Positions 20,151 to 33,987 of a stretch of DNA of 64,000 nucleotides are shown here, one piece after another. The notes beneath the pieces are model-generated. The model did not search any database, had not been told where the DNA came from, and saw nothing but the letters and a program-made list of their open reading frames with translations. The stretch is from Lentisphaera marina. GTDB lineage: Bacteria > Verrucomicrobiota > Lentisphaeria > Lentisphaerales > Lentisphaeraceae. The translations under genes and the position numbers were made by a program. Position 1 is the stretch's first letter. Every line of letters begins with the position of its first letter. Location: NCBI RefSeq assembly GCF_028745505.1, contig NZ_JAQZZL010000001.1:1421818-1485817 (forward strand), read 5' to 3'.

Positions 20151-20434
20151 TCTTTATTCTCTCTTTTTACGATTATGTAATTAATAGTTAATTACTTACT
20201 ATTTTGTAACTAAGCATAAACTATTAACCTATTTTTGAAATTCAAGTTAAGATCCAGAGGAAAGTCATAAAAATAAAAAATATTTATCTAAATCATTGTA
20301 TTTGAATAATTTATAAAATAATATATGGGAGTCTAGCTTGTTTTTAACCTTATTATTATAGTCAAGTATAATTATCGGAGGCTAAATAACTTACAAAAAT
20401 AAAAGCTCAGCTTTGTGTGATTCGGACACAAAAA

Positions 20435-20470
20435 AACCTCATGTAAGGCGTAGCTTAAATGAGGTTTTTT
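20435..20470 (-). terminator. Rho-independent terminator downstream of pspF
   Basis: Stem ACCTCAT...ATGAGGT flanked by A7 / T6 runs (bidirectional potential). Confidence 0.6.
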
Positions 20471-20488
20471 AGGTGAGTTCTATTTGAA

Positions 20489-21427
20489 TTAGGGGCAGTA
20501 CTTTTGGTAGAAGTGACGGAATTGGTTGTAGGTCATTTGTAACTGTCGTGCTGCCTCGCTCTGATTGCCTGCGCAATCTTCGTAGGCTTTTAAAATTAGT
20601 TTGCGTTTAAAGTTCTCTACTCGTTCGTCATAGCTTAAACCCAAGTAATCAGCACCCGAAATAATAGCGGGGAGTTCATGTTCTTCTATATATGGCGTAT
20701 CACCAAAGAGGTAGAGTCGTTCAACAATATTTTTGAGCTCTCGAATATTACCTGGCCAATAATAGTCCATGAGAATCTCTATTGTATTACTACGGAATTT
20801 ACGTTCCTGCAAAGAAGGCATTTCTTCGTGAAGTAATTTTACGAAATGAACAATGAGCGCCGGAATATCATCCTTTCTTTGACGTAGAGAAGGGAGTTCG
20901 ATTTCAGCAAAAGTGAGACGGTCATATAAGTCGCGACGAAAAAGCTTTTCCTCCATGAGTTCTTCGAGATTTGCGTTTGTCGCAGAAATGAGGCGAACGT
21001 CAACTTGGATGGCTTTGGAGCTACCGACACGTTCAAAAGTTTGGTACTCAACCGCACGTAAGATTTGTTCTTGGAAATTCATCGGCATAATACCGACCTC
21101 ATCCATAAAGAGACTTCCTTTATCAGCCTGCTCCATACGACCAATTCGTCTTTCATTCGCTCCCGTGAAAGCGCCTTTTTCATGACCAAACATTTCCGAA
21201 GCAATAAGCTTTTCGGTAAAAGCTGCACAGTTTATGGTGACAAAATTTTCTTGAGCACGTGAACTAGCGCGGTGAATATAATTCGCCATCAGTTCTTTAC
21301 CTGTTCCCCGTTCACCTCTAATTAAAATAGGGCGAGGGACCTTAGCGATTTTTGCGACTTTCGCAAGTAATTTTTGCATCACTTTTGATTGTGCGATTCC
21401 AGTATATTCCATAATTGTAGCTCCCAT
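20489..21427 (-). CDS. pspF: Sigma-54-dependent transcriptional activator lacking an N-terminal receiver/sensor domain (PspF-like)
   Basis: AAA+ sigma-54 interaction domain with GERGTGKE Walker A, GAFTGA motif, WPGNIRELKN, C-terminal HTH; about 312 aa with no regulatory domain; divergent from pspA as in the enterobacterial psp locus. Confidence 0.8.
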   Translation of the reverse strand: MGATIMEYTGIAQSKVMQKLLAKVAKIAKVPRPILIRGERGTGKELMANYIHRASSRAQENFVTINCAAFTEKLIASEMFGHEKGAFTGANERRIGRMEQADKGSLFMDEVGIMPMNFQEQILRAVEYQTFERVGSSKAIQVDVRLISATNANLEELMEEKLFRRDLYDRLTFAEIELPSLRQRKDDIPALIVHFVKLLHEEMPSLQERKFRSNTIEILMDYYWPGNIRELKNIVERLYLFGDTPYIEEHELPAIISGADYLGLSYDERVENFKRKLILKAYEDCAGNQSEAARQLQMTYNQFRHFYQKYCP

Positions 21428-21603
21428 TAATCTCTTTATGGCTATACAAATAGAGCCGATTTACAGACTTTCAAGAATGTGGGGTTTTTCAATAAGTCAT
21501 CTATTGAGAAACCATAATTTATTTGCGCTTGATTAATTATTCAAAATAAATTAATTAATGTAAGTGTTTATTTATAAATATTTTATGTATTTTGATTGGT
21601 GGT

Positions 21604-21619
21604 TTGGCACGGGTTTCGT
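21604..21619 (+). promoter_or_regulatory. Candidate sigma-54 (-24/-12) promoter for the pspA operon
   Basis: TTGGCACGGGTTTCGT: good -24 element (TGGCACG), degenerate -12 element (TTCG rather than TTGC); lies about 45 bp upstream of pspA ATG, divergent from a PspF-type activator gene. Confidence 0.4.
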
Positions 21620-21662
21620 TCTATGTTCACCATCTCAACAAAAATAAACGAGGAAACAAAAA

Positions 21663-22361
21663 ATGAATATCTTCAAAAGAGTAAGCAATATTATTAGTAG
21701 CAAGATTGATGACTTAATCGCTGGTTATGAAGATCCTGAAATGGCATTGGATTCTCTTATTCAAGATATGGAGAAGGGGATAGCTGAACTAAGAACTAAT
21801 GCCGCTAGTTGCATCAGTCAGAAAAAAATGACTGAGAAAAAATTAGCAAGCGCCGAAGCTGAAGTGAAGAAATGGCAGAACAATGCCATTGCTGCTTTAG
21901 AGAAAAGTAATGAGGACTTAGCTCGCAAGGCTTTGGAGCGTAAGAAAAGTTCTGAAGAAGAGCGTTTGGCATTAACGGCTCAATTAGCTGAAGAAACAGC
22001 ACTTGTTGATAAGATTAAGACCCAACTTCATCAAGTTGAAGATAAGATTCAAGAAGCTCGCAAGAAGCGCGATACGCTCATAATTAAAAAGCGTGCCGCA
22101 GATGCTCGTAAGAAAATGGCTGAAACTTCTCAAGCGCTTGATACGGGTATTAGCTCGAGTACAGATTCAGTATTGAATGGCTTCGCGGAATTCAATAAGT
22201 ACGAAGAGAAAATTGAGCGCGATGTCGCTATGTCTGAGGCGATGATGGAAGTCAATAAAGTTTCTGTCGATGACTTAGAAGAGCAATTCAAAGAATTACA
22301 GGCAGATGATGAAATCTCTGCTGAGCTTGAAGCACTAAAAGCTCAAGTTAAGAAGAAGTAA
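21663..22361 (+). CDS. pspA: Phage shock protein A (PspA/IM30/Vipp1, ESCRT-III superfamily)
   Basis: Collinear with E. coli PspA over its full length (e.g. NEDLARKALERK vs REDLARAALIEK; FKELQADDEISAELEALKAQV vs [21 protein letters not shown]); SD GAGGA 9 nt upstream. Confidence 0.85.
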   Translation: MNIFKRVSNIISSKIDDLIAGYEDPEMALDSLIQDMEKGIAELRTNAASCISQKKMTEKKLASAEAEVKKWQNNAIAALEKSNEDLARKALERKKSSEEERLALTAQLAEETALVDKIKTQLHQVEDKIQEARKKRDTLIIKKRAADARKKMAETSQALDTGISSSTDSVLNGFAEFNKYEEKIERDVAMSEAMMEVNKVSVDDLEEQFKELQADDEISAELEALKAQVKKK

Positions 22362-22374
22362 GTTCAGAGAAGGT

Positions 22375-22818
22375 ATGAATCCACAGATTTCTCAGATTTT
22401 CACAGAGCTGAGAATGATGTGGTTTGATGAAGGAGAAGGGGTGAATTATTCAAAACAGGATGATCCAGAAACTTATGAAGTGATTGGAGCAGCTTATAAA
22501 GTGCATGGAGAGTTAGGTCATGGTTTTTTAGAGGCCGTTTATCAAGATGCTTTAGAGGTGGAGTTATTAAAACAAGAGATTCCGTATCAAAGGGAATTGA
22601 AGTTGGATATTTATTATTCAGGAGAAAAGTTAAATTCTTTTTACAAAGCGGACTTTATTTGTTATGGAACTTTGCTAGTAGAATTGAAGGCATTAACGAA
22701 GTTGAGTGGAGCCGAAGAATCTCAAGTTTTAAATTATCTAAAAGCTACTGGTCTTAAAAAAGCTCTATTAATCAACTTTGGATCAAGCTCAATCCAAATA
22801 AAACGTTTTGTTCTGTGA
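22375..22818 (+). CDS. GxxExxY family protein (PD-(D/E)xK-like fold)
   Basis: Core ETYEVIGAAYKVHGELGHGFLEAVYQDALEVEL matches the GxxExxY signature; gene starts 13 bp after the pspA stop. Confidence 0.65.
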   Translation: MNPQISQIFTELRMMWFDEGEGVNYSKQDDPETYEVIGAAYKVHGELGHGFLEAVYQDALEVELLKQEIPYQRELKLDIYYSGEKLNSFYKADFICYGTLLVELKALTKLSGAEESQVLNYLKATGLKKALLINFGSSSIQIKRFVL

Positions 22819-23021
22819 GAATCTGAGGAATCTGTGGATGAATTTTAAAAAATTCTTGCGAGGGACAAAAACAAGACACTTTAGCAAAATTAGTCATCCA
22901 CCAAGATAAAGTTGCAGGTTTTTGGCTGCAGTGACAGGAATCTTGAAACATGTTCAAAAACTCAGTGTTGATTTAGATCGAGAACAAGTCATAGTTAATT
23001 ATTATTTATTAGGAGTGAGTA

Positions 23022-23657
23022 ATGTCTGAAATATTAGATTATGCCATGCGGCTACATATCTTTCCATTTAGTGCTTTGTTGGTGCTAATGATACTGTTTT
23101 GGTTAACAGTCATTATTGGAGCTGCCGATGTGTCTCTCTTTGACTTTGATTTGGACGTCGATGTAGATGCTGACCTTGATATAGATGCGAGCTCCGAATC
23201 GAGCCCGAGTTTCTTTCGATCACTTGCAGATTTTCTCAATTTGGCTGAGGTCCCCTTTATGGTGGTACTTACTTTCTTTGTGCTCTTTTCATGGGCGGGC
23301 TTAGTCTATGCTGAGTCATTAGTCAATGTGTCAGGCGAGGGCTTTATTCAATGGATCAGTTACGTACCAATTTTATTAGGGGCTTTGATTATCTCAAAAT
23401 ATATTTCATCACCTTTTGGTAAAGTTGTTAAAGTTTTAAACAACAACCCAGAAGACCAGGATACTGCGGTGGGAAACATGGGAGTACTTTTACAAGATGT
23501 GAATGAAGAGCACGGACGTGCAAGTATTGAAACAAAATCCGCACCCATAGAAATTCTTTGTTATACAGAAAATGAAAAAATAAAAAAGGGGGAGAAGGTT
23601 TTAGTTTTAAGCTGGAATGAGGGAAGGCGAAAATTTTTAGTTACAAAATATTCATAA
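23022..23657 (+). CDS. YqiJ-like inner-membrane protein with C-terminal NfeD-type OB-fold
   Basis: N-terminal TM, acidic DxD repeat segment (FDFDLDVDVDADLDIDA), two more TMs, and a C-terminal beta-rich tail like NfeD/YqiJ; directly upstream of a flotillin gene as in E. coli yqiJK. Confidence 0.55.
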   Translation: MSEILDYAMRLHIFPFSALLVLMILFWLTVIIGAADVSLFDFDLDVDVDADLDIDASSESSPSFFRSLADFLNLAEVPFMVVLTFFVLFSWAGLVYAESLVNVSGEGFIQWISYVPILLGALIISKYISSPFGKVVKVLNNNPEDQDTAVGNMGVLLQDVNEEHGRASIETKSAPIEILCYTENEKIKKGEKVLVLSWNEGRRKFLVTKYS

Positions 23658-23682
23658 ATTTATATAAAAGAAAAAAATAGGA

Positions 23683-25821
23683 GTGATTATGGAATCATTA
23701 TTAAACGTATTTGTTGCCGCAGGTAACGTAGTGGGTCTCGTTGTAGTCGGGGTCATATTATTATTATTGGTAGGCTTTTTCTTTATGCTTGCCAGTTGGT
23801 TCAAAAAAGTGCCGCAGGGTAAAGCTATTATTAGAACGGGTCTAGGTAAAACCAAAGTATCATTTACTGGTATTTATATTGTACCAGTCGCTCACAGACT
23901 CGAGCTCATGGATATCGCCGTGAAAAGAATTGAAATAAATCGTCGTGCATCAGATGGTCTGATCTGTAAAGACAATATGCGAGCAGATATTACAGTAGCA
24001 TTTTTCGTACGTGTGAATAAAACAGAGCACGACGTACTTTCTGTAGCGAGTATGATTGGTGTTGAACGTGCATCTGATCAGTCTGCCTTAGTAGAACTTT
24101 TTGATGCCAAATTCTCTGAGGCCTTAAAAACTGCGGGTAAAATGTTCGATTTTGAAGATCTTTACACACAACGCCAGCAATTCAAAGATGAGATTATCCA
24201 GATTATTGGTACTGACCTTAATGGATATAGTCTTGAGGATGCCGCGATTGACTACCTTGAGCAAACGCCAAAAGAGATGCTGAGTTCAGATAATATTCTC
24301 GATGTTGTTGGTCTAGAAAAGATTGCGACTATTACTCGTGAGAAAAAAGTTAATATTAATGAACAAGAACGCGAAGAAGAAAAAGCGATTACTCGTCAGA
24401 ATGTTGATGCACGTGAAAAAATCCTCGACATGGAAAAAGAGTTAGCTGAAGCAGAAGAAAAACAAAAACTCGAAATTGCAAACATCGAAGCGAGAACCAA
24501 AGCCGAAGCTGAAGTCGTTTCTCAGCAGGAACTCAAGCGTTCAGAAGAAGCGCGTATTCGTACGCAAGAAGACGTTCAAGTTGCTGAAGAGAACAAAGAT
24601 CGTCAGATCATTGTCGCTCAGAAAAATAAAGAACGTACTGAAGCAGTTGAACAAGAACGTGTCATTCGTGATCGCGATTTAGAAGCTACAGAGCGTGAGC
24701 GCGTGGTAACTCTTGCGGATATCGCAAAAGAAAAAGCGGTGGAAGTTGAAAAGAAAAATATTCAAGAAGTCATCCGTGAGCGTGTTACTGTAGAACGCAG
24801 TGTTGTGGAAGAAGAAGAGAAAATTAAAGATACCAAAGAATTTGCTGAAGCAGAACGTCACAAAGGCGTTGAAATCACTAAGGCAGAGGAAGAGGGTAAA
24901 AGTACTCTGATTCGTGAAGAACAAATTGCCGCCGCACATAAACGTGCAGCAGAACTCAAGGCCGAAGAAGAAAAAATTGTTGAAGTTACGGCTGCAGAAG
25001 CTCGCAAACGTTCGGCAGAACTTTGGGCTGAACAAGAAGTTATTGAAGCGGAAGCGCGTTTTGAAGCCAGCACGAAAGATGCTGAAGCCAAGAAAAAACT
25101 TGCTGAAGGTGTAACTGCGGAAGAAGCTGCAGTTGGTTATGCAGAAGCGAATGTAAAAACTGCCATGGCAGATGCACTCGAGAAAGAGGGTACTGCAGAG
25201 GCTAAAGTCATTGGTATGAAAGGCTCTGAAGAAGCTAAAGTTATCGGCCTTAAGGGTGAAGAAGAAGCGAAAGCTACTGGCGCGATGTACACTGTAGAAG
25301 CAGAAGGTACACATGCTAAAGCCGAAGCAATGAAAGCCCTTGATGGTGTGGGTAAAGAACACGAAGAGTTCAAACTCCGACTCAATAAAGAGAAAGAAGT
25401 GGAACTCGCGGAAATTCGTATCCAGGCAGAAATTGCCGATGCACAAGCAAGTGTGCTTAAATCAGGTCTCGAAAATAGTAAGATCGAGATTGTCGGTGGC
25501 GAAAGTATGTTCTTTGACAGCATGCTTCAGTCAATCACCAAAGCTCGTCAGACTGATCAGCTCATTGGTAAATCAGAAGTTCTTACAGATGTTAAAGAAA
25601 CTTTCTTCAATGACGATAAGAGCTTTAAAGAAAGCTTAGCTGACTTTGTCGATAAATTTGGTGTGAGTTCTGAGGATCTCAAGAATTTATCTGCAGCAGC
25701 GCTTTTAACTAAGCTTTCAGGTCAGGCTTCAGGCGGAGATAAAAGCCTAATTGATGGCTTGCTCAGTAAAGTTGAAGCACTGGGCTTAGGTAGCCAGAAC
25801 GCTGGCAAGTTCCTTAAATAG
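23683..25821 (+). CDS. Flotillin-like SPFH/Band-7 protein (YqiK-like) with long E/A/K-rich coiled-coil tail
   Basis: N-terminal TM, SPFH core (VPQGKAIIRTGLGK...), then about 300 aa of charged heptad repeats typical of flotillins. Confidence 0.8.
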   Translation: MIMESLLNVFVAAGNVVGLVVVGVILLLLVGFFFMLASWFKKVPQGKAIIRTGLGKTKVSFTGIYIVPVAHRLELMDIAVKRIEINRRASDGLICKDNMRADITVAFFVRVNKTEHDVLSVASMIGVERASDQSALVELFDAKFSEALKTAGKMFDFEDLYTQRQQFKDEIIQIIGTDLNGYSLEDAAIDYLEQTPKEMLSSDNILDVVGLEKIATITREKKVNINEQEREEEKAITRQNVDAREKILDMEKELAEAEEKQKLEIANIEARTKAEAEVVSQQELKRSEEARIRTQEDVQVAEENKDRQIIVAQKNKERTEAVEQERVIRDRDLEATERERVVTLADIAKEKAVEVEKKNIQEVIRERVTVERSVVEEEEKIKDTKEFAEAERHKGVEITKAEEEGKSTLIREEQIAAAHKRAAELKAEEEKIVEVTAAEARKRSAELWAEQEVIEAEARFEASTKDAEAKKKLAEGVTAEEAAVGYAEANVKTAMADALEKEGTAEAKVIGMKGSEEAKVIGLKGEEEAKATGAMYTVEAEGTHAKAEAMKALDGVGKEHEEFKLRLNKEKEVELAEIRIQAEIADAQASVLKSGLENSKIEIVGGESMFFDSMLQSITKARQTDQLIGKSEVLTDVKETFFNDDKSFKESLADFVDKFGVSSEDLKNLSAAALLTKLSGQASGGDKSLIDGLLSKVEALGLGSQNAGKFLK

Positions 25822-25963
25822 AAAGCTTTAGAGGAAGAGTTTAGGCTCTTCCTCAAGCTTCATAACTTGTTCGAATAGCCTCTGATTCGAAAGGATTTGG
25901 ATTAGAGGCATTATTGAATAACAAAGTTAATAAAATTTAGGGATAAATTAGAGAGGAGAGTCT

Positions 25964-28900
25964 ATGTCAGAAGAAGAAAAAACAGAGCAACTTGGGGGTG
26001 GAACCTACGAGCTACTAAAAGGTCGTATCGATACTCAGGTTAAAGATTTACAGGGCCGCATGGAGGGGCTCAATGAGCAGCGAAAAGAAGTCTTTGGCTC
26101 TATTGCGACATCACTTATTGGAAGTGATAAAATTACGACGCCAAACAATTGCATTGCACAAGATTTTTGTACGATAGGTCAGAACTTTATTTTTGGTTAC
26201 AATGTAACTTTAGGGCTTAAGAGCCACACGAGTTTAGAGGACGTCTTTGCGATTTATTTATACGAAGATGGACGTTTTCACGAACAAAATTTAGAGCTTA
26301 TACAAAGCGACGAATTTCTAGACAAATTTGCCGACCTCTACAAATACTATAAAAAAGCGCAGTTTGTGCGTTTTTCGACTCGTGGGCACAAGCTTTACAT
26401 GGTCTTTCGCATTGGCGAAGATATTGATGATCTCAAGGTTTTTAAGTGGACGATTAATGAAGGTTCATTGACTTATGTTGATGACCGTAGTGTGCACGAA
26501 TACAGTTATCCCCCACAGCATGAATTTGAATGGCAGCGTACGACCCGCGACATGCACGTAGAAGGCGATCACCCGCACGTTTCCATTGATGATCGCGTTT
26601 TTGTAGAGACAGTTGGTGGTGACTTGACGATCAAAGTAGAAAATAATACTGGTGATGGCAGTGGTATCTACGAAGAAGATGTGGAAAACAAAGACCAAAC
26701 TTTAGACGATGGCGATATTAATTACGCAGTATTAGATAATCTAATTATGCTAAAAATACGTCCTTATCAAGAGAAAGAGGACCGTTATATTGTCTATAAT
26801 GACAAGTTGAAAGAAGCGGTTAGGATTGATCGAATCCGCAATTCATGCGTGCTTTTGCCAGAAGGACACGGGATTATATTTTCCAATGGTTACTACCTGC
26901 AAAATGGTGAGTATAAGCTCTTTGATCTCGATGTAAATAATTTAAAATTTGACCGTAAGCAAGCTTCTCCAAATGGCGAAGATATGCTTTACGTTTTTTA
27001 TAATCGTGAACAGGGCGTGTATGTTCTGCAGTTTTATAATCTAATTGATCAGCGTGTGTCGACTCCGATTATTTGTCATGGTTTTTCACTATTCCCCGAT
27101 GGTAAGATGGTTTACTTCAAGTCAGAGGATGAACCACGTAAGCACCATACGATTCAAGTTTGGCAAACCCCATTTACTGCTGCTGATTTTATACCAGAAG
27201 TGAGTGAAGAACAGGCACAGAGTCAGATTTATAAAATTGGCAATAAAGAAGTTGTCAGTTGCATGGCGGAATGTCAGGAAGTTATCAATTTACTTTCCCG
27301 TGGCGAGAGTTACGCCGACCTCTATGTCGATGTCGTCAAAAAATCGACAGATATTCTCGATGGTTACTTTTGGTTGAAAGAAGAGGGCGTGGGTAATTTA
27401 GCTGACCCACTTGATGGCATTCGCTTGGCTTCGACCACGGCAATTGACGAATACGAGAAAGTCAAAAAACTTCGTAAAGAAACGGATAAAATGACCAAAG
27501 AGGTTGCGGCTGAGGCTGAAGAATTATTCCGCCAAATTCCCTATACCGCCTTTGATCATATAGATAAATTTGTTGGGAAACTTAGTGAGTTACGTCAGTT
27601 GCGTTCACATGTGATTGAACTCAAAGAACGCGCTTATGCAGATATTAACTTTTGTGATGAAATCGAAAAAGAAATCTTAGAGAACTCGGACAAAATTTCT
27701 GGACGTTGCATCGATTTCCTTGCCGATGAAAAATCACTCGATCCCTATCGTGAGCAAATTTCAGCTCACGAAGAGCAACTTGCGGTTTTTGCAAAAGTGA
27801 TGGAAGGCAAAGAACTCGAGGAAAAGCTTGCGGAGACCGCAAGTCAGCTTGAGATGTTAATTGAAACAGTTTCGAATTTAAAAATCGATGACCCGACGCG
27901 GACCACGCAAGTCATTGATTCCATCTCTAGTGTTTTTACTATACTGAACCAAACGAAAGGCAAGCTCAAAAACCGTATCAAAGACTTGATGTCTGTGGAA
28001 GGGAAAGCCGAGTTTAATGCACAGCTCAAATTACTCAATCAAGGTGTGGTCAATTACTTAGATGTGGCGAATGAACCAGCTGTGGTAGAAGAATATTTGA
28101 CTAAGGCGATGGTGCAGTTAGAGGAACTTGAGAGTCGTTTTTCTGAGTTTGATGAATTCATCCCCGTCTTAGCTGAAAAACGCGATGAAATTCAAAATGC
28201 GTTTGAGCAACGCCGTATTTTCCTTAGTGAAGAGCGTGCAAGAAAAGCAGAAGCCTACATGGCCGCTGCCGACCGAATTTTAAAATCCATTAGCAATCGC
28301 TTAAAGAACTTTAAAGAAGTTAAGGAGATTTCTTCTTATTTCGCCGCGGATATGATGGTGGATAAACTACGTGATTTAGTTGGTAAACTACGTGATGCGG
28401 GTGATTCAGTTCGCGCAGATGACTTGGAAAGTCGTTTGAAAAGTCTTAAAGAAGAAGCGATTCGTCAGCTCAAGGATAAGACTGAACTCTATGTTGAAGG
28501 AGAAGATGCAGTACGTTTTGGTAAGCATGTTTTCTCGGTCAATAAACAGGATCTCAAACTCACCTTAGTTTCGCGTGAAGGCGACTTTTATTACCATTTA
28601 ACAGGAACTCGCTTTTTCGAGAAAGTTGAATCAGAAGAACTAGAAGAGACACGTGAAGTCTGGAGCATGGAATGTGTTTCGGAGAATAGCGAAGTCTATC
28701 GAGCAGAGTTTTTGGTTAAAGCCATAATTGATGACTTAGAAGAGAAAGACTTAGCTGAACTTATTGCTAAAAGTGATGAAGAATTAGTAGAGTACGTTCG
28801 CCAATTTATGGCACCGCGTTACGAGGAGAATTATACCAAGGGTATTCATGACCATGATGCCGCTTTAATTCTCCGACAAGTGCTCATCCTCATGCGCGAT

Positions 28901-31165
28901 ATGGATTTACTTAACTTCTCGCCAATGGTTAGATCTGCAGCACAGCTCTTTTGGTTGAGTTTGGAAGAAGGTGAAGACAAAGAAAAACTCCTGAGCCGCA
29001 TTAAGAATTTTGGCATTATGTATCAGTTATTCCCCGGTCGTAAGCCAGGTCAAGATTTAGTTGATGATTTGAGGGAGTCTTTTGATGTGTCTTTAGCGAG
29101 TGAACTATGTTCCGAACTCGAGAGAGGCGAAGCGGTGGACTACCTCATACGCGAATTGGGACGTCATGATCACTTCATTATTTCTCATGCGGCGAGTCAA
29201 TTGCATCACGCATTTGAAGCCCATTTGAAGTCGGCGCGTTTTAAGCTCAAATTAGACGAATCCTTGGATGCTCAATTTGCGGGCAATATTTCTCAACGTT
29301 TTGAAATTGTCAGCGAATGGATGAAGGCGTTTATCGAAATGAAAGGGGATGAATTTAATTCTGCTTACCTCAATGAAGCCGCTTTAATTTTTGCTGCCCA
29401 GAGTTTTAATCCTCTGCACGTGATTCAGGCCGAGATGGAAAAAGAAATCGCAGATATGGTCGGTTCACATTCACTTCTTAAAGAAGGTGGAATTTATAGC
29501 TTAGATTTCCAAGACTTTTCAAAGCGCTTAGATAGTTTCGTACATATAACGGCACCAAAATATCGTCGCTATGTGGATCTAAAGCACGAATTAAGTGAAC
29601 AGCAAAAAAGCTTCATGCGCCTAGATGAATTTAAGCCACGTGTTTTGAGCTCATTTGTTCGTAACCGTTTAATTAACGAAGTTTATCTCCCCATGGTTGG
29701 CGATAACCTAGCGAAACAAATGGGGACCCTAGGTGAGAATAAGCGTACTGACCTTATGGGGATGTTGCTTTTGATTTCACCTCCAGGTTACGGTAAGACG
29801 ACTCTGATGGAATACATTTCCTCATGCTTAGGCTTAGTCTTTATGAAGATTAACGCTCCAGCCATTGGTCATGCCGTCACTTCTCTAGATCCTGCGGAGG
29901 CACCCAATGCGTCTGCAGCGGAAGAACTCAAGAAATTGAATTTGGCTTTCGAGATGGGAGATAATGTGATGATTTATCTTGATGATATTCAGCACTCCAA
30001 TCCCGAGCTCTTACAGAAATTCATTTCCCTCTGTGATGGTCAAAGAAAAATTGAAGGTGTCTACAAAGGGCAGCCAAAGACTTATGACCTACGTGGACGT
30101 AAAGTTTGTGTGATTATGGCGGGTAACCCCTATAATGAATCGGGTGAAAAATTCCAGATTCCAGATATGCTTTCCAACCGTGCAGATACCTATAATTTGG
30201 GTGACATTATCGGCGATACCAAAGAGGCCTTCTATTCGTCTTACTTAGAAAACTCATTAACATCTAATCCTGCACTTGCGAAACTCGCAACCGCAGGTCG
30301 AAAAGATGTGGAATCCTTTATTGCCGCGGCTGAAAAAGGAAGTAGTCAGGGGGTTAGTATTGAGGGTGATTTCTCAACGGCTGAAATGAACGATATTATT
30401 GAAGTTTTAAAGAAATTACTCGTCGTCCGCGATGCTATTGCGGCAGTCAACTTAGAATATATTCGTTCAGCTTCTATTCAGGATGATTACCGTACAGAAC
30501 CTTCCTTCAAACTACAGGGTTCATACCGTAATATGAATAAGATTACTGAGAAGGTATTGCCCATTATGAATGATGAAGAATTGGATACACTGATTCAAAG
30601 TCATTATAATAATGAATCGCAGACGCTAACGGGTGATGCTGAATTTAACTTACTCAAATTCCGTGAACTCACCGATCATTTGAGTGATGAAGATATTCAG
30701 AGAATTGGCGATATTCGCAATACTTTTGGTCGTAATCAACTCTTTGCGAATGCAGATGAGAATGATCCAGTGTCGCAAGTTGTGGTTCAGCTCGGTCAAT
30801 TTTCTGAAAAACTTAGTCAGATTAGCGAAGTTATTGCTGCGGCCTCCGCAAGTAATTCCAAAAAGTCTGGTTTTAGTTTAGATGAAGATACCATGGCTAA
30901 GTTGACGAAATTATTCTATCCAGATGAAAAGGATAAACGTGATCGTCATGTTGTTGTTCCTGGTAAGGTAGAGATCGTCAATAATGTTCCAGACTTTTTC
31001 TCTCACATCCTCAAGGATCAATTTGAGGTCATGAAGAATTGGATTAAGCCCTTGATGGCAGACAACATGATCGAACGCGATGATATTGCCGACCTCAAGA
31101 ATTCAATGCTCGACCTTTCAGCTAATTACCAACAGCTACTCGAGCGCATGGGCCAAGACGAATAG
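25964..31165 (+). CDS. Giant (1733 aa) uncharacterized protein with a single C-terminal MoxR/AAA_5-class AAA+ ATPase domain
   Basis: Continuous 5.2 kb ORF. Walker A LLLISPPGYGKTTL near residue 1290, Walker B MIYLDDIQHSNPELLQKF, sensor-1-like VCVIMAGNPYNESGEKFQIPDMLSNRADTY resembling the MoxR ATQNP...LDRF block. The about 1250 N-terminal residues are mostly helical/coiled-coil with no motif I recognise. Confidence 0.7.
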   Translation: MSEEEKTEQLGGGTYELLKGRIDTQVKDLQGRMEGLNEQRKEVFGSIATSLIGSDKITTPNNCIAQDFCTIGQNFIFGYNVTLGLKSHTSLEDVFAIYLYEDGRFHEQNLELIQSDEFLDKFADLYKYYKKAQFVRFSTRGHKLYMVFRIGEDIDDLKVFKWTINEGSLTYVDDRSVHEYSYPPQHEFEWQRTTRDMHVEGDHPHVSIDDRVFVETVGGDLTIKVENNTGDGSGIYEEDVENKDQTLDDGDINYAVLDNLIMLKIRPYQEKEDRYIVYNDKLKEAVRIDRIRNSCVLLPEGHGIIFSNGYYLQNGEYKLFDLDVNNLKFDRKQASPNGEDMLYVFYNREQGVYVLQFYNLIDQRVSTPIICHGFSLFPDGKMVYFKSEDEPRKHHTIQVWQTPFTAADFIPEVSEEQAQSQIYKIGNKEVVSCMAECQEVINLLSRGESYADLYVDVVKKSTDILDGYFWLKEEGVGNLADPLDGIRLASTTAIDEYEKVKKLRKETDKMTKEVAAEAEELFRQIPYTAFDHIDKFVGKLSELRQLRSHVIELKERAYADINFCDEIEKEILENSDKISGRCIDFLADEKSLDPYREQISAHEEQLAVFAKVMEGKELEEKLAETASQLEMLIETVSNLKIDDPTRTTQVIDSISSVFTILNQTKGKLKNRIKDLMSVEGKAEFNAQLKLLNQGVVNYLDVANEPAVVEEYLTKAMVQLEELESRFSEFDEFIPVLAEKRDEIQNAFEQRRIFLSEERARKAEAYMAAADRILKSISNRLKNFKEVKEISSYFAADMMVDKLRDLVGKLRDAGDSVRADDLESRLKSLKEEAIRQLKDKTELYVEGEDAVRFGKHVFSVNKQDLKLTLVSREGDFYYHLTGTRFFEKVESEELEETREVWSMECVSENSEVYRAEFLVKAIIDDLEEKDLAELIAKSDEELVEYVRQFMAPRYEENYTKGIHDHDAALILRQVLILMRDMDLLNFSPMVRSAAQLFWLSLEEGEDKEKLLSRIKNFGIMYQLFPGRKPGQDLVDDLRESFDVSLASELCSELERGEAVDYLIRELGRHDHFIISHAASQLHHAFEAHLKSARFKLKLDESLDAQFAGNISQRFEIVSEWMKAFIEMKGDEFNSAYLNEAALIFAAQSFNPLHVIQAEMEKEIADMVGSHSLLKEGGIYSLDFQDFSKRLDSFVHITAPKYRRYVDLKHELSEQQKSFMRLDEFKPRVLSSFVRNRLINEVYLPMVGDNLAKQMGTLGENKRTDLMGMLLLISPPGYGKTTLMEYISSCLGLVFMKINAPAIGHAVTSLDPAEAPNASAAEELKKLNLAFEMGDNVMIYLDDIQHSNPELLQKFISLCDGQRKIEGVYKGQPKTYDLRGRKVCVIMAGNPYNESGEKFQIPDMLSNRADTYNLGDIIGDTKEAFYSSYLENSLTSNPALAKLATAGRKDVESFIAAAEKGSSQGVSIEGDFSTAEMNDIIEVLKKLLVVRDAIAAVNLEYIRSASIQDDYRTEPSFKLQGSYRNMNKITEKVLPIMNDEELDTLIQSHYNNESQTLTGDAEFNLLKFRELTDHLSDEDIQRIGDIRNTFGRNQLFANADENDPVSQVVVQLGQFSEKLSQISEVIAAASASNSKKSGFSLDEDTMAKLTKLFYPDEKDKRDRHVVVPGKVEIVNNVPDFFSHILKDQFEVMKNWIKPLMADNMIERDDIADLKNSMLDLSANYQQLLERMGQDE

Positions 31166-31237
31166 TCGCAGTTCAATCATAATAATAAAAAGACTCTAAT
31201 TACAGAGCAATAATAAAATTAACAGGAGAGGAGATAT

Positions 31238-32764
31238 ATGTTTATATTTGTATTGGGATTAATGGTACTAGCTCTAGGAGCGGTTATACCCATTCTTTTA
31301 GGCGATAAAATGGATGGGGTGATTAAAGTATTCTTCCGTGTTTCGGCAGGAGTGATTGCTTTGGTGTTAATTGTAGCTTCGACTGCAATTTATGTAGAAG
31401 ATGATCAAGCGGGAATTGTGATTGTTAAATTTGGTAAAGATTTACCTGTGGGGCAAATTATTGCCACCAAGGGAGAAAAAGGACCACAAGCCCAAGTATT
31501 GCCTCCAGGCTGGCACTTTTTATACTGGCCTTGGTTATATGATCTAAAAACAGTCGATAACATGACGATCCCCCAAGGAAATGTAGGTGTTGTAGAAGCG
31601 ATGGACGGAGCCAATTCTTTGCCTAAAGGAGAAATATTTGCTCAAGAATGGGAGAACCCCGTTGATATGCTCAATGCTCAGATGTTCATGGAGAAAGGAA
31701 ATAAAGGACCTCAATTAACTGTATTAACGCCAGGTCAATACCGCTACAACCCACGCCTTTTTAAGATTACGGTGAAAAAAGCCTTAGAGGTGCCCATTGG
31801 TACCGTTGCCGTTATTAAAGCGAATGCGGGTAAACCTTATGAAATCACAGAGAAAGTGGAGATGGTTAATGGCGTGCCAATTGTACCCAAAGGTTTTAGA
31901 GGGATTTGGAATAAAGCACTTTCACCTAATGCGTATTACCTGCATCCTGATGCCTTTGTTGTGACTTTAGTTCAGACAACCAATCGAGTTTATAATTACG
32001 TTCAAAAGAATAGCATTACGGTTAAAACGAGTGATTCATTTGAGTTCCCAGTGGATGTTCGTGTATCAGTGAAAATATCAGCTGAAGACGCTCCCTATGT
32101 CGTTGCAATGTTGGCAAATCCTGACGCCGACTTGGACCGTAATGGTTTTGTCGTACTTGAAGACCGCGTCATTCTCCCCACTATTCGTGCTATTTTTAGA
32201 AATAATGCTGAATCGCGTGGAGCAATTCAGTATGTTCAGGAACGTTCTCAGATCGAAGAAAGTGCGACGGCCACGTTTGCAGAAAAGTTAGCGACATACC
32301 GAGTGACTACGGATGGAGTCTATGTGGCAGATATTGGTATTCGTGATACTGAAGAAGGCAAGAAGCTCTTGTCGACTCAAACTGATAAAGAAGTTGCTAA
32401 GCAAGAAGTAGATACTTTTAAAGTACAGCAAACAGCTGAAATTGAGCGTGCACAAGTAGTAAAAGCTAAAGAAGATGCGGAACAAGAGCAGTTAAAAGCT
32501 AAAGCAAGAGCCAAAGTGGATATTGCTGAGCAGGAGGCTCAGGCTGAGATTAAATTGGCGGAAGGGCGAGCTCAAGCTTACATGAAAAAAATGGAAGCAC
32601 TTGGAGGTGTTGATAATTTTGTTAAACTAGAAATGCTTCGCTTAGCGATGGAGCAGTGGGACGGTAAAGTCCCAGAAATTCTTCTCATGGGTGGAGGTGA
32701 TTCAAGTAGTGCAGAAGCAGTGAACTCATTGATAATGAAAAAGCTTCAAGCAGATAAGAAATAA
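31238..32764 (+). CDS. Second SPFH/Band-7 family membrane protein with coiled-coil C-terminus
   Basis: Two N-terminal TMs, SPFH-like core, then Q/E/A/K-rich coiled coil (QEVDTFKVQQTAEIERAQVVKAKEDAEQEQLKAKARAK). Confidence 0.6.
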   Translation: MFIFVLGLMVLALGAVIPILLGDKMDGVIKVFFRVSAGVIALVLIVASTAIYVEDDQAGIVIVKFGKDLPVGQIIATKGEKGPQAQVLPPGWHFLYWPWLYDLKTVDNMTIPQGNVGVVEAMDGANSLPKGEIFAQEWENPVDMLNAQMFMEKGNKGPQLTVLTPGQYRYNPRLFKITVKKALEVPIGTVAVIKANAGKPYEITEKVEMVNGVPIVPKGFRGIWNKALSPNAYYLHPDAFVVTLVQTTNRVYNYVQKNSITVKTSDSFEFPVDVRVSVKISAEDAPYVVAMLANPDADLDRNGFVVLEDRVILPTIRAIFRNNAESRGAIQYVQERSQIEESATATFAEKLATYRVTTDGVYVADIGIRDTEEGKKLLSTQTDKEVAKQEVDTFKVQQTAEIERAQVVKAKEDAEQEQLKAKARAKVDIAEQEAQAEIKLAEGRAQAYMKKMEALGGVDNFVKLEMLRLAMEQWDGKVPEILLMGGGDSSSAEAVNSLIMKKLQADKK

Positions 32765-32817
32765 TTCAAATTTATCGGTGCTAGAGTTTTTTAGCACTGA
32801 CGAGTTTTGGGAGGGAT

Positions 32818-33309
32818 ATGAAATATATAATGAAGGATAAGTTTTTTTCTCTTGGTGATAATTACGAGATTAAAACCGAGGATGAAAAATTAGCTTATAC
32901 AGTGAAAGGCAAATTTCTGAGTTTTGGAAATAAGCTCGATGTTTTTGATCACTCAGGTAAAAATGTTGCCTTTATTGAACAAAAGTTATTATCAATGATG
33001 CCCTGTTATCGTTTGTACAAAGGAGGGCTTATGTTTGCCGAAGTCATGCAAAAATTTGCTTGGTTTAAAAAGAATTTTCTTTTGGATGTTCCAGGACCAA
33101 ACGATTACACTATAAAAGGTGATTTTTGGGGACATAAATACAAATTTTATCGTTCGGGAAAAGTTGTGGCAAGAGTTGATAAGAAAATGTTTACTTGGGC
33201 CGATAGCTATGGAGTTGATATCGTCGAAGGAGAAGATGATCTTTCAATTATCTCAACAGTCATCATTATTGATCTAGTGAGTAATAATAATAGTGGTTCA
33301 GAGTTCTAA
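32818..33309 (+). CDS. LURP-one-related / tubby-C-terminal-like (DUF567, scramblase-like fold) protein
   Basis: 163 aa; pattern DKFFSLGDNYEIKTEDEKLAYTVKGKFLSFGNKLDVFDHSGKNVAFIEQKLLSM...FKKNFLLDVPG matches the LOR/DUF567 family repeating beta-hairpin motif. Confidence 0.5.
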   Translation: MKYIMKDKFFSLGDNYEIKTEDEKLAYTVKGKFLSFGNKLDVFDHSGKNVAFIEQKLLSMMPCYRLYKGGLMFAEVMQKFAWFKKNFLLDVPGPNDYTIKGDFWGHKYKFYRSGKVVARVDKKMFTWADSYGVDIVEGEDDLSIISTVIIIDLVSNNNSGSEF

Positions 33310-33392
33310 TACAACAATAGCATTTTGATGAATGTAGGCCATGGAAGTGGGCTTATGAACAACTAGTAATTAGCCATAGATGATAGTAAAAA

Positions 33393-33426
33393 AAGACGAA
33401 CTTGTGAAAGTTCGTCTTTAGTTTTT
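33393..33426 (+). terminator. Rho-independent terminator ending the pspA operon (bidirectional)
   Basis: Stem AAGACGAACT-tgtgaa-AGTTCGTCTT followed by TAGTTTTT; preceded by A7, so it can also terminate the convergent minus-strand gene. Confidence 0.75.
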
Positions 33427-33787
33427 AGGGACCTACAAGCTTAAAACAGAGTTGTTTGGTTAAGGTGTCTTGGGGCCCAGAATCTTTTCGAGATAGCAAA
33501 GTTTCTCCATTGTGATTATAGTAGTTGAGCTGGTTGAGCTTACAGAAGTCAATAAAGGCTTCGCAATGAAAATCTTGATCACAATTAATGACGGCCCAGA
33601 AATTTTTGAGTGAGTGTTCAACTTTTTTGAAATTTTTTCCCAGATAATTAAATGAATACTTTTTGGCGATGTTTTTGAGCTGAGGTGCTGCACCTACAAT
33701 GCTCACATCCATACCTTGTTTAAATGCTTTTTTAAGAATTGCTTTACCACGTTTTGTTACGCTGCCAAGTATAAGTATCTTTTTCAT
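33425..33787 (-). CDS. Small hypothetical protein, possibly truncated NAD(P)-binding Rossmann-like domain
   Basis: 120 aa; N-terminus MKKILILGSVTKRGKAIL resembles a dinucleotide-binding beta-alpha-beta; too short for a complete SDR/NmrA protein. Confidence 0.3.
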   Translation of the reverse strand: MKKILILGSVTKRGKAILKKAFKQGMDVSIVGAAPQLKNIAKKYSFNYLGKNFKKVEHSLKNFWAVINCDQDFHCEAFIDFCKLNQLNYYNHNGETLLSRKDSGPQDTLTKQLCFKLVGP

Positions 33788-33987
33788 TTAGACTATTCCT
33801 CTTTAGGTTTAGATCTTATAAAATAATGCCAAAACTTACTTGAAAGCAAACTTTTTTACTTGCTAATTGTGAGTATGATTAATTAAATTTACTCATGGGC
33901 TCTGAAAATGAATACATGACGACAATGAGTGCCAATTTTATGGGAGTTTAGCTATTAGTAAATTCTAATATTGAGAGGTCAAAGTGA

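What the first reader, a model, noticed from the sequence alone, without database searches (positions are those of the whole stretch)
20489..33426. Expanded PspF/sigma-54-controlled pspA operon with two SPFH/flotillin proteins, a YqiJ/NfeD protein, a giant MoxR-type AAA+ protein and a LOR/tubby-like protein
The sequence shows a PspF-type sigma-54 activator with no sensor domain, divergently transcribed from pspA. A TGGCACG-containing promoter-like site lies between them. Six further tightly spaced plus-strand genes follow pspA and end at one strong terminator (33393-33426). Their products are a GxxExxY protein, a YqiJ-like NfeD membrane protein, a YqiK-like flotillin, a 1733-aa AAA+ protein, a second SPFH protein and a LOR/DUF567 protein. 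The classical psp operon (pspABCDE) has no SPFH, NfeD or AAA+ partner, and no pspB/pspC signal-transducer genes are visible here. PspA belongs to the ESCRT-III superfamily, which in archaea and eukaryotes works with the AAA+ ATPase Vps4. SPFH scaffolds and tubby/scramblase-like folds are lipid- and membrane-domain binders. I infer a sigma-54-inducible membrane repair/remodelling module, or possibly an abortive-infection-type membrane defence system. In it the giant AAA+ protein may supply the disassembly or force-generating role for PspA and flotillin assemblies.
Basis: partly seen in the sequence, partly recalled or inferred. Interest (0 to 1): 0.85.

Follow-up and report, generated by a model that had tools for sequence, protein, structure and literature searches.

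The report
PspF-controlled PspA–flotillin–giant ATPase operon
In the marine bacterium Lentisphaera marina, a phage-shock (PspF/PspA) membrane-stress switch sits directly upstream of a widespread but untested flotillin plus giant-ATPase gene trio. This is a new regulatory wiring of a gene association already described by comparative genomics, not a new kind of system.

Summary
All eight genes, the sigma-54-type promoter and the terminator are present as described. The window is Lentisphaera marina.

The core is a three-gene module: yqiJ (NfeD-like), flotillin and a 1733-aa ATPase (DUF3686 beta-rich domain, coiled coil, AAA+). NCBI names the ATPase "DNA repair ATPase". A flotillin gene lies directly upstream of the ATPase gene in 69 of 80 genome loci from at least seven phyla.

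A PspA gene lies beside the module in 23-24 of those 80 loci, in four different arrangements. Ravi et al. 2024 (mSystems) already described the PspA + Band-7/flotillin + YqiJ + beta-propeller-AAA+ operon and drew the same ESCRT-III/Vps4 analogy.

Three things are particular to Lentisphaera:
- a PspF-like sigma-54 activator and a classical-type PspA, instead of a CesT/Tir–YjfJ-type dyad; none of the 80 other loci has this
- a LOR/YxjI-like gene at the end of the operon
- a second SPFH gene, absent in L. profundi

The GxxExxY gene is a decaying cassette flanked by inverted repeats. A conserved block upstream of yqiJ suggests a second, internal promoter. The ATPase co-occurs with flotillin far more consistently than with PspA, and its fold is closer to MoxR/HCLR ATPases than to Vps4. 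There is no evidence for phage defence.

Verdict: a new variant of a known, experimentally uncharacterised kind. Interest is moderate.

The parts
20489..21427 (-). PspF-like sigma-54 enhancer-binding protein: AAA+ domain with GAFTGA, lid and Fis-type HTH, no N-terminal sensor domain. The true start is probably M6 at 21412, because the orthologues are 307 aa.
   Evidence: The E. coli PspF residues that dock PspA (Y51, L52, W56) are R, A, A here (alignment; residue roles from PMC3791423).
21483..21513 (.). Conserved palindrome GGTTTTTCAATA-N7-TATTGAGAAACC. It is the candidate binding site (UAS) for the PspF-like activator. Its centre is about 109 bp upstream of the -24 GG and 56-86 bp upstream of the pspF start.
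   Evidence: 12-nt arms, 92% complementary, conserved in three species. Its function is inferred.
21604..21620 (+). Sigma-54-type -24/-12 promoter TTGGCACGGGTTTCGTT. The GG lies at 21606-7 and the -12 element reads GT rather than GC.
   Evidence: It is unique in the window and invariant in three species apart from two bases in the spacer.
21663..22361 (+). pspA, classical type and full length. It is 91-97% identical among the three Lentisphaera species.
   Evidence: (TIGR02977 130 bits, below the 243-bit cutoff).
22375..22839 (+). GxxExxY / PD-(D/E)XK cassette. The ORF is 22375-22818, bracketed by 28-nt inverted repeats at 22379-22406 and 22812-22839. It is a probable selfish insertion and not a working part of the system.
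   Evidence: Only fragments of 53 aa and 78 aa remain in L. araneosa and L. profundi.
22955..23021 (+). Conserved block directly upstream of yqiJ. It contains a candidate internal sigma-70-type promoter: TTGATT at 22968-22973, 16 nt, then CATAGT at 22990-22995.
   Evidence: It is conserved in four Lentisphaera-level lineages while the rest of the spacer diverges. Promoter function is inferred.
23022..23657 (+). YqiJ/YuaF-type (NfeD-like) membrane protein, the usual upstream partner of flotillin.
   Evidence: YqiJ_N 1.8e-9. A homologue sits upstream of flotillin in 45 (tblastn) to 53 (clustering) of the 80 loci.
23683..25821 (+). Flotillin-like protein: TM segment, divergent SPFH domain, long Glu/Ala/Lys-rich coiled coil and a C-terminal domain.
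   Evidence: Orthologues are 46-54% identical across phyla and lie directly upstream of the ATPase gene in 69 of 80 loci.
25964..31165 (+). Giant ATPase: N-terminal helix, beta-repeat (propeller-like) DUF3686, helical/coiled-coil region with DUF7902, then an AAA+ module at about aa 1230-1500. Walker A is GYGKT, Walker B is an invariant LDDIQH, and a beta-hairpin precedes sensor 1.
31238..32764 (+). Second SPFH protein with two TM segments and an SPFH domain. It is an accessory gene, absent in L. profundi, and its family occurs in unrelated contexts elsewhere.
32818..33309 (+). LOR / YxjI-like (tubby/scramblase-like fold family) protein. It is a lineage-specific last gene, linked to the ATPase gene in Lentisphaera and in one 81%-identity metagenomic relative.
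   Evidence: Planctomycete homologues lie in unrelated contexts.
33392..33419 (.). Bidirectional intrinsic-terminator-like hairpin (12-bp stem) between the LOR gene and a convergent 120-aa ORF.

Best explanation
**What it is.** The locus is a stable chromosomal fusion of two membrane-maintenance modules, found only in the genus Lentisphaera.
- Module 1 is a PspF-like sigma-54 activator gene divergent from a classical-type pspA. Between them lie a conserved -24/-12 promoter and a conserved palindromic upstream site.
- Module 2 is the widespread trio yqiJ (NfeD-like), flotillin and giant ATPase (beta-propeller-like domain, coiled coil, AAA+).
- Lineage-specific extras were added: a LOR/YxjI-like protein, a second SPFH protein in two of the three species, and a decaying GxxExxY cassette.

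**Proposed mechanism (inferred).**
1. Membrane stress frees the sensor-less activator.
2. Sigma-54 RNA polymerase then transcribes pspA and reads through into the flotillin module. That module probably also has its own basal promoter.
3. The flotillin/YqiJ pair forms a membrane scaffold that helps place PspA, as the SPFH protein YdjI does in Bacillus subtilis.
4. The giant ATPase docks on the scaffold through its propeller-like and coiled-coil parts. It uses ATP to remodel or recycle the flotillin assembly first, and the PspA assembly only secondarily.

**Shown:** gene content, domain identities, conservation of the sites, and neighbourhood statistics.
**Inferred:** induction, co-transcription, physical contacts and the ATPase substrate.
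For: - The domain calls are. The organism and the family size (more than 4596 homologues with E<=1e-10) are.
- The yqiJ-flotillin-ATPase trio is conserved in Planctomycetota, Bacteroidota, Verrucomicrobiota, Desulfobacterota, Clostridia, Kiritimatiellota and Omnitrophota.
- A PspA-family gene lies beside the trio in 23-24 of 80 loci. There are four distinct arrangements, with different regulators:
  - Bacteroidota: HTH_3(-) || CesT_Tir_1-PspA upstream of the trio.
  - Phycisphaerae: PspA downstream of the ATPase gene.
  - Kiritimatiellota: a CII-like regulator followed by PspA, upstream of the trio.
  - Lentisphaera: PspF || PspA upstream of the trio.
  Repeated independent juxtaposition argues for a functional link.
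- The order is conserved in L. araneosa, L. profundi and a metagenomic relative.
- The promoter and the palindrome are conserved.
- No terminator-like site lies in any plus-strand intergenic gap before 33392.
- Literature: the same operon class and the same inference appear in PMC11237479. In B. subtilis the SPFH protein YdjI is required to link PspA to the membrane (PMC8581546).
Against: - There are no expression data.
- The -12 element is non-consensus (GT).
- The presence of rpoN in this genome was not checked.
- The residues of E. coli PspF that dock PspA (Y51, L52, W56) are not conserved. PspA-mediated repression therefore cannot simply be assumed.
- A conserved sigma-70-like block upstream of yqiJ means the trio may be expressed independently of PspF.
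- 203 bp and a decaying cassette separate pspA from yqiJ.
- Both structure models are of only medium confidence (pLDDT 62-65).
- No member of the ATPase family has been studied experimentally; searches for DUF3686, PF12458 and 'DNA repair ATPase' + flotillin found no papers.
Confidence: 0.55

Rival explanations
1. There are two adjacent but separate transcription units. One is a small sigma-54 pspF||pspA divergon. The other is an independent yqiJ-flotillin-ATPase-(SPFH)-LOR operon driven by its own sigma-70 promoter. On this reading the PspF link to the ATPase module is only positional.
For: - A block of about 70 bp is conserved upstream of yqiJ and contains TTGATT-16-CATAGT.
- A 203-bp spacer with a decaying cassette and long inverted repeats separates pspA from yqiJ.
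- The trio stands alone, without PspA, in most loci, including Lentisphaerales relatives at 55% identity.
Against: - PspA has been placed next to the trio independently in four lineages.
- No terminator-like site lies between pspA and yqiJ on the plus strand.
- The adjacency is kept in four Lentisphaera-level genomes.
- An internal promoter and read-through are not mutually exclusive.
Confidence: 0.25
2. The giant ATPase is the Vps4 equivalent for PspA (bacterial ESCRT-III), and PspA polymers are its primary substrate.
For: - PspA belongs to the ESCRT-III superfamily, and the literature proposes the analogy (PMC11237479).
- PspA lies next to the trio in 23-24 of 80 loci.
Against: - The ATPase gene is next to flotillin in 69 of 80 loci, whether or not PspA is nearby.
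- No MIT-like domain was detected.
- The model shows a beta-hairpin before sensor 1. From general knowledge of AAA+ classification, classical Vps4-type AAA domains lack this hairpin.
Confidence: 0.12
3. The locus is an abortive-infection or anti-phage membrane defence system induced through PspF.
For: - The name and history of the phage-shock response.
- The closest homologue of the second SPFH protein outside Lentisphaera lies on a jumbo-phage-like contig, and one IMG/VR contig carries a relative.
- A PD-(D/E)XK-family gene is present.
Against: - PspA, YqiJ, flotillin, the ATPase, the second SPFH protein, LOR and GxxExxY give no PADLOC hits.
- The flanking genes are transporter and metabolic genes, in the same order in three species.
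- The GxxExxY gene is decaying.
- The ATPase family is very large and occurs in a stable chromosomal context.
Confidence: 0.04
4. The giant protein is a DNA repair ATPase, as named in Pfam and NCBI, and its membrane neighbours are coincidental.
For: - The database names.
- Weak P-loop similarity to RuvB.
Against: - The gene is consistently next to flotillin and YqiJ across phyla.
- No DNA-binding or nuclease domain was detected.
- No literature supports the name.
Confidence: 0.03

Closest known systems
[quoted passage not shown] 2024, mSystems, PMC11237479; prototype in Bacteroidetes)
   Same: The three core genes are the same, in the same order, with a PspA-family gene upstream. I recovered the published arrangement in 20 Bacteroidota loci. 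The functional inference is also the same: ATP-dependent dynamics beneath the membrane.
   Different: - There is no CesT/Tir chaperone gene.
- PspA is of the classical type, not the YjfJ type. phmmer with the window PspA (E<=0.01) does not reach the Bacteroidota PspAs.
- The regulator is a PspF-like sigma-54 activator, not an XRE-HTH protein, and none of the 80 other loci has one.
- A LOR gene and a second SPFH gene are added, and there is no PLD gene.
Classical proteobacterial pspF || pspABC(DE) system
   Same: A sensor-less bEBP with GAFTGA is divergent from pspA. A -24/-12 promoter is present, with a palindromic site upstream in the shared intergenic region.
   Different: - No pspB or pspC is found in the window.
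- The YLW/W56 PspA-docking patch of PspF is replaced by R, A, A.
- Both proteins score below the NCBIfam equivalog cutoffs.
- The genes downstream are a flotillin-ATPase module.
Bacillus subtilis pspA-ydjGHI and yuaF-floT; E. coli yqiJ-yqiK
   Same: An NfeD-like gene is paired with a flotillin/SPFH gene. In B. subtilis an SPFH protein is needed to place PspA at the membrane (PMC8581546).
   Different: These operons have no giant ATPase and no sigma-54 control, and their SPFH proteins have a different architecture.
MoxR-family AAA+ ATPases (NorQ, CbbQ)
   Different: - The protein has 1733 aa, with large N-terminal beta-repeat and coiled-coil regions.
- There is no VWA-domain partner.
- Walker B is DD rather than DE.

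Membership tests
Classical Psp system (PspF/PspA) | PspA/IM30 domain protein | tested here: met
   PF04012 9.4e-42 over the full length. The NCBIfam equivalog TIGR02977 scores only 130.4 bits against a cutoff of 242.95.
Classical Psp system (PspF/PspA) | bEBP with no N-terminal regulatory domain, with GAFTGA and a C-terminal HTH, divergent from pspA | tested here: met
   The NCBIfam pspF equivalog scores 322.6 bits against a cutoff of 443.55, so it does not reach equivalog level.
Classical Psp system (PspF/PspA) | Sigma-54 -24/-12 promoter upstream of pspA with upstream activator sites | tested here: met
   The promoter-like sequence and the palindrome are both present and conserved in three species. 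This is a sequence-level test only; activity was not tested.
Classical Psp system (PspF/PspA) | PspA-docking YLW (W56-loop) patch on PspF | tested here: not met
   The E. coli sequence HYLSSRWQGPF aligns with HRASSRAQENF here. The role of the patch is described in PMC3791423.
Classical Psp system (PspF/PspA) | PspB/PspC signal transducers in the operon | tested here: not met
   tblastn of the window gave a best E-value of 1.3. The query sequences were recalled from memory, and the rest of the genome was not examined.
PspA-flotillin-YqiJ-AAA+ operon (Ravi et al. 2024) | Beta-propeller + coiled-coil + AAA+ ATPase | tested here: met
   - DUF3686 4.1e-182, DUF7902 and AAA are all present.
- The model shows beta-hairpin repeats at aa 65-400 followed by long helices.
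- The top Foldseek hits are mostly propellers but are weak, with no match at E<=0.001.
- Orthologues in Bacteroidota lie in the published operon.
PspA-flotillin-YqiJ-AAA+ operon (Ravi et al. 2024) | [quoted passage not shown] | tested here: met
   Band_7 is detected in four of 18 orthologues but not in this copy.
PspA-flotillin-YqiJ-AAA+ operon (Ravi et al. 2024) | CesT/Tir-like chaperone paired with a YjfJ-type PspA | tested here: not met
   There is no CesT_Tir gene here. It is present in the Bacteroidota loci (PF22550 2.9e-58). The PspA here is of the classical type.
MoxR AAA+ | MoxR-type AAA+ fold (inserts in helix 2 and before sensor 2) and a VWA-domain partner | tested here: inconclusive
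Vps4-type classical AAA | N-terminal MIT domain and a classical-clade AAA fold | tested here: not met
Known anti-phage defence systems | Match to a PADLOC model for the effector or structural genes | tested here: not met
   Only the generic AAA-HTH part of the activator matches RtcR/PspF models. The other seven proteins give no hits.

The most novel reading that the evidence does not exclude
The PspF/sigma-54 wiring would show that the flotillin-YqiJ-giant ATPase trio is a stress-induced effector arm of the Psp response. The giant ATPase would then be the missing ATP-driven machine that assembles or recycles bacterial SPFH scaffolds and PspA (ESCRT-III) polymers. The LOR/tubby-like protein would act as a lipid-binding adaptor or damage sensor. 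This is a bacterial analogue of ESCRT-III/Vps4, built from an unrelated AAA+ clade.
Probability: 0.25. Interest if true: 0.7.

Novelty: new variant of a known kind. Interest (0 to 1): 0.4.

Why it matters
The giant ATPase family is very large: more than 4,500 homologues were scored, across many phyla. Databases call it a "DNA repair ATPase", and it has never been studied experimentally, although it is almost always encoded next to flotillin.

How bacterial PspA polymers and SPFH scaffolds are taken apart or recycled without a Vps4 is an open question. The Lentisphaera arrangement does not raise that question for the first time. It does offer a practical handle on it: a simple, sensor-less sigma-54 activator and one promoter that should switch the module on under membrane stress, in a genus with cultured strains such as L. 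araneosa HTCC2155.

The neighbourhood statistics also redirect the hypothesis. Flotillin, not PspA, is the constant partner of the ATPase.

Tried and rejected
- **PADLOC scan of all eight proteins.** Only generic AAA-HTH matches for the activator.
- **PDB sequence searches.** For the ATPase only weak Rix7/RuvB P-loop matches. Nothing for the flotillin, and one weak QmcA hit with its profile. For the second SPFH protein only weak prohibitin matches.
- **N-terminal fold search.** No match at E<=0.001. The weak list is mostly beta-propellers, so it is consistent with a propeller but does not prove one.
- **LOR as a general partner of the trio.** Rejected. None of the 80 loci has it, and planctomycete homologues sit in unrelated contexts.
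- **Second SPFH as a general partner.** Rejected. None of the 80 loci has it, it is absent in L. profundi, and its homologues lie in unrelated or phage-like contexts.
- **A 157-aa ORF after the ATPase gene in L087.** It is a frameshifted tail of the ATPase, not a LOR protein.
- **Metagenome scan with PspA.** It returned only one short contig, but that contig confirmed the order PspA-YqiJ-flotillin.
- **Viral-contig scan with the single SPFH protein.** Nothing found.
- **Rfam scan of 20000-34500.** No RNA family matched.
- **Junction alignment to decide whether the second SPFH gene was inserted or lost.** Uninformative.
- **Literature searches.** DUF3686, PF12458 and 'DNA repair ATPase' + flotillin returned no papers.

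Full report
**1. Observation**

- 20489-21427(-): a 312-aa sigma-54 enhancer-binding protein (Sigma54_activat 1.9e-64, AAA_lid_14, HTH_8). It has no N-terminal sensor domain and an intact GAFTGA motif.
- 21663-22361: PspA (PF04012, 9.4e-42).
- 22375-22818: a GxxExxY / PD-(D/E)XK protein (TIGR04256, 1.2e-40).
- 23022-23657: a YqiJ_N membrane protein.
- 23683-25821: a 712-aa protein with a TM segment and a long coiled coil.
- 25964-31165: a 1733-aa protein with DUF3686 (4.1e-182), DUF7902 and an AAA domain.
- 31238-32764: a 508-aa Band_7 protein.
- 32818-33309: a 163-aa LOR protein.

The 712-aa protein gives no Pfam hit of its own. Four of 18 orthologues hit Band_7 (best 9.3e-11), and so does the L. 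araneosa orthologue. Orthologues keep 46-54% identity across phyla, so 'flotillin-like' is acceptable.

A 12-bp-stem hairpin at 33392-33419 can act as a terminator in both directions. No terminator-like site lies in any plus-strand intergenic gap before it. The gaps are 13, 203, 25, 142, 72 and 53 bp, so 'tightly spaced' is only partly true.

**2. Control region**

TTGGCACGGGTTTCGTT at 21604-21620 is the only such site in the window (0.09 expected by chance). In an alignment with L. araneosa and L. profundi it is invariant except for two spacer bases, while the surrounding AT-rich DNA diverges. The -24 GG and the -12 G are at the canonical spacing. The -12 dinucleotide reads GT rather than GC. 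From memory, the E. coli pspA promoter shows the same deviation.

About 109 bp upstream of the -24 GG lies a palindrome, GGTTTTTCAATA-N7-TATTGAGAAACC (21483-21513). It is again conserved in all three species. It is the obvious candidate binding site for the activator. It also lies 56-86 bp from the pspF start, as expected for autoregulation. Both roles are inferred.

One detail departs from the E. coli paradigm. PspA docks on E. coli PspF through residues Y51, L52 and W56 (PMC3791423). In this protein they are R, A and A (alignment to the PDB PspF chain). Both the activator and PspA score below the NCBIfam equivalog cutoffs.

**3. Organism and family**

The giant protein is 100% identical to a Lentisphaera marina protein named 'DNA repair ATPase'. 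More than 4,596 homologues scored E<=1e-10 among the candidates examined, and most carry the same three Pfam domains.

A profile scan of one genome per species returned at least 568 loci, of which the best 80 were kept. They come from Planctomycetota, Bacteroidota, Verrucomicrobiota, Desulfobacterota, Clostridia, Kiritimatiellota and Omnitrophota.
- tblastn and clustering of the flanks show a flotillin orthologue directly upstream of the ATPase gene in 69 of 80 loci. Most exceptions are contigs that end there.
- A YqiJ orthologue lies upstream of flotillin in 45 (tblastn) to 53 (clustering) loci.
- What follows the ATPase gene is highly variable and is often a convergent gene.

The conserved unit is therefore the trio yqiJ-flotillin-ATPase.

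**4. PspA and the trio**

A PspA profile finds a PspA-family gene beside the trio in 23-24 of the 80 loci. It occurs in distinct arrangements.
- In 20 Bacteroidota loci: an HTH_3 regulator on the opposite strand, then CesT_Tir_1, PspA, YqiJ, flotillin and the ATPase. A PLD or DUF4178 gene is sometimes added.
- In two Phycisphaerae loci: PspA directly downstream of the ATPase gene.
- In one Kiritimatiellota locus: a phage-CII-like regulator, then PspA, then the trio.

None of the 80 loci has a sigma-54 activator, a relative of the 508-aa SPFH protein or a LOR protein. Independent juxtaposition in several lineages is good evidence that PspA and the trio work together. The constant partner of the ATPase, however, is flotillin.

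**5. Within Lentisphaera**

- L. araneosa (87% identical ATPase) has the same order. Its GxxExxY gene is reduced to a 53-aa fragment, and an IS110 element sits between the second SPFH gene and the LOR gene.
- L. profundi (89%) has PspF||PspA, a 78-aa GxxExxY fragment, the trio and the LOR gene. It has no second SPFH gene.
- A marine contig at 81% identity has YqiJ, an extra short SPFH gene, flotillin, the ATPase and LOR.
- Another contig shows PspA (88%), about 570 bp of spacer, YqiJ and flotillin.
- Lentisphaerales relatives at about 55% identity carry only the trio.
- The flanking transporter and metabolic genes are the same in the three species, so this is a stable chromosomal locus.
- PspA is 91-97% identical among the three species.

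The 'expanded operon' is therefore a mosaic. It has an old core, a genus-level fusion to PspF/PspA, a LOR gene acquired in the same clade, a variable second SPFH gene and a decaying cassette.

**6. Accessory genes**

The GxxExxY ORF is bracketed by 28-nt inverted repeats that are 93% complementary. The repeats are also present at the decayed copies. Intact GxxExxY genes sit between the flotillin and ATPase genes in four Verrucomicrobiota loci. This looks like a recurrent selfish insertion, not a working part of the system.

LOR homologues in Planctomycetota lie in unrelated contexts.

The 508-aa SPFH family is widespread. Its closest homologue outside Lentisphaera (68% identity) lies on a 195-kb contig with ribonucleotide reductase, inteins, an RNA ligase and many small ORFs, which looks like a jumbo phage. 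One IMG/VR contig carries a 39%-identity relative. A Lentisphaeria MAG copy stands alone.

**7. Is it one transcript?**

The roughly 70 bp directly upstream of yqiJ are nearly invariant in four Lentisphaera-level lineages, while the rest of the spacer is not. The block contains TTGATT-16-CATAGT (22968-22995). This is a plausible internal sigma-70 promoter. I therefore expect basal expression of the trio plus stress-induced read-through from the sigma-54 promoter. This is an inference.

**8. The ATPase**

- No solved structure is related by sequence beyond weak P-loop matches to Rix7 and RuvB.
- The model of residues 1-700 (pLDDT 64.7) has an N-terminal helix, beta-hairpin repeats from about residue 65 to 400, and then long helices. 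Its weak Foldseek hits are mostly beta-propellers, and none reaches E<=0.001. This agrees with the published description 'beta-propeller + coiled-coil + AAA-ATPase'.
- The model of residues 1150-1733 (pLDDT 62.5) has an AAA+ core with a beta-hairpin immediately before the sensor-1 strand.
- Walker A is GYGKT. Walker B is an invariant LDDIQH, that is DD rather than DE.

'MoxR-type' is thus weakly supported. A Vps4-type classical AAA fold is not. No VWA partner gene is present.

**9. Comparison with what is known**

Ravi et al. [quoted passage not shown] They note that abbreviated flotillin-YqiJ(-ATPase) operons are widespread, and they propose ATP-dependent membrane dynamics comparable to Snf7/Vps4. 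Popp et al. 2022 (PMC9239133) report PspA-band 7-FloT-NfeD links. Scholz et al. 2021 (PMC8581546) show that an SPFH protein is needed to link PspA to the membrane in B. subtilis.

Neither comparative paper mentions Lentisphaerae or a PspF/sigma-54-linked version, and neither mentions a LOR partner. Searches for DUF3686, PF12458 and 'DNA repair ATPase' + flotillin found no experimental paper on the ATPase family.

**10. Verdict**

- The membrane-remodelling reading is the best available one, but it is not new.
- The ATPase is more likely a flotillin-scaffold remodeller that also serves PspA than a dedicated PspA disassemblase.
- The defence reading has no support.

What is new is the regulatory wiring (a PspF-like sigma-54 activator with a classical-type PspA), the LOR gene and the second SPFH gene, all confined to one genus. 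This is a new variant of a known, experimentally untested kind. Its main value is as a tractable, inducible entry point for studying the giant ATPase.

Noticed in passing
window 22375-22839: The GxxExxY ORF is bracketed by 28-nt inverted repeats (22379-22406 and 22812-22839, 93% complementary). The left arm lies inside the 5' end of the ORF and the right arm overlaps the stop codon. The same repeats flank the decayed copies in L. araneosa and L. profundi, and the left arm is duplicated in L. profundi. In an mRNA they could form a long stem enclosing the ORF.
   Followed up: partly
L025 9489-9896, L045 9498-9773, L061 8500-8856, L075 9553-9909: In four Verrucomicrobiota loci an intact GxxExxY gene sits between the flotillin and giant ATPase genes. 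This small gene has therefore entered the same operon at a different position in another phylum.
   Followed up: no
window 22955-23021: The roughly 70 bp upstream of yqiJ are nearly invariant in four Lentisphaera-level lineages, while the rest of the spacer diverges. The block contains TTGATT-16-CATAGT and is a candidate internal promoter.
   Followed up: partly
L090 (8001-9560) and L092 (6001-7533): The closest homologue of the 508-aa SPFH protein outside Lentisphaera (68% identity) lies on a 195-kb contig with ribonucleotide reductase, inteins, GIY-YIG, an RNA ligase and many small ORFs, which looks like a jumbo phage. A 154-kb IMG/VR contig carries a 39%-identity relative.
   Followed up: partly
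window 20489-21427 (residues ~52-62 of the activator): The hydrophobic YLW patch that docks PspA on E. coli PspF is R, A, A here (HRASSRAQENF against HYLSSRWQGPF). If PspA represses this activator, it must do so through a different surface.
   Followed up: partly
window 25964-31165 (residues 1336-1344): The Walker B motif of the giant ATPase is LDDIQH, with an invariant Asp-Asp in all aligned homologues instead of the usual Asp-Glu. From memory, this resembles the DnaA/DnaC-type motif and may indicate a slow, switch-like ATPase.
   Followed up: no
L081 17276-18355: In L. araneosa an IS110-family transposase gene is inserted, in the opposite orientation, between the second SPFH gene and the LOR gene.
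   Followed up: no
window 33425-33787 (-): A convergent 120-aa ORF immediately after the terminator is conserved at the same position in all three Lentisphaera species and has no Pfam match.
   Followed up: partly
window 61919-61934 (-): A second TGGCAC-N5-TTCGT-like site (TGGCACAGGCATTCGT) lies inside the ORF 61181-62068(-). It is probably a chance match.
   Followed up: no
L029, L039, L052, L053: Small phage-CII-like (Phage_CP76) HTH genes lie next to the trio in Verrucomicrobiota and Kiritimatiellota. They may be yet another lineage-specific regulator of the same module. Only the L039 copy was scanned against Pfam.
   Followed up: partly
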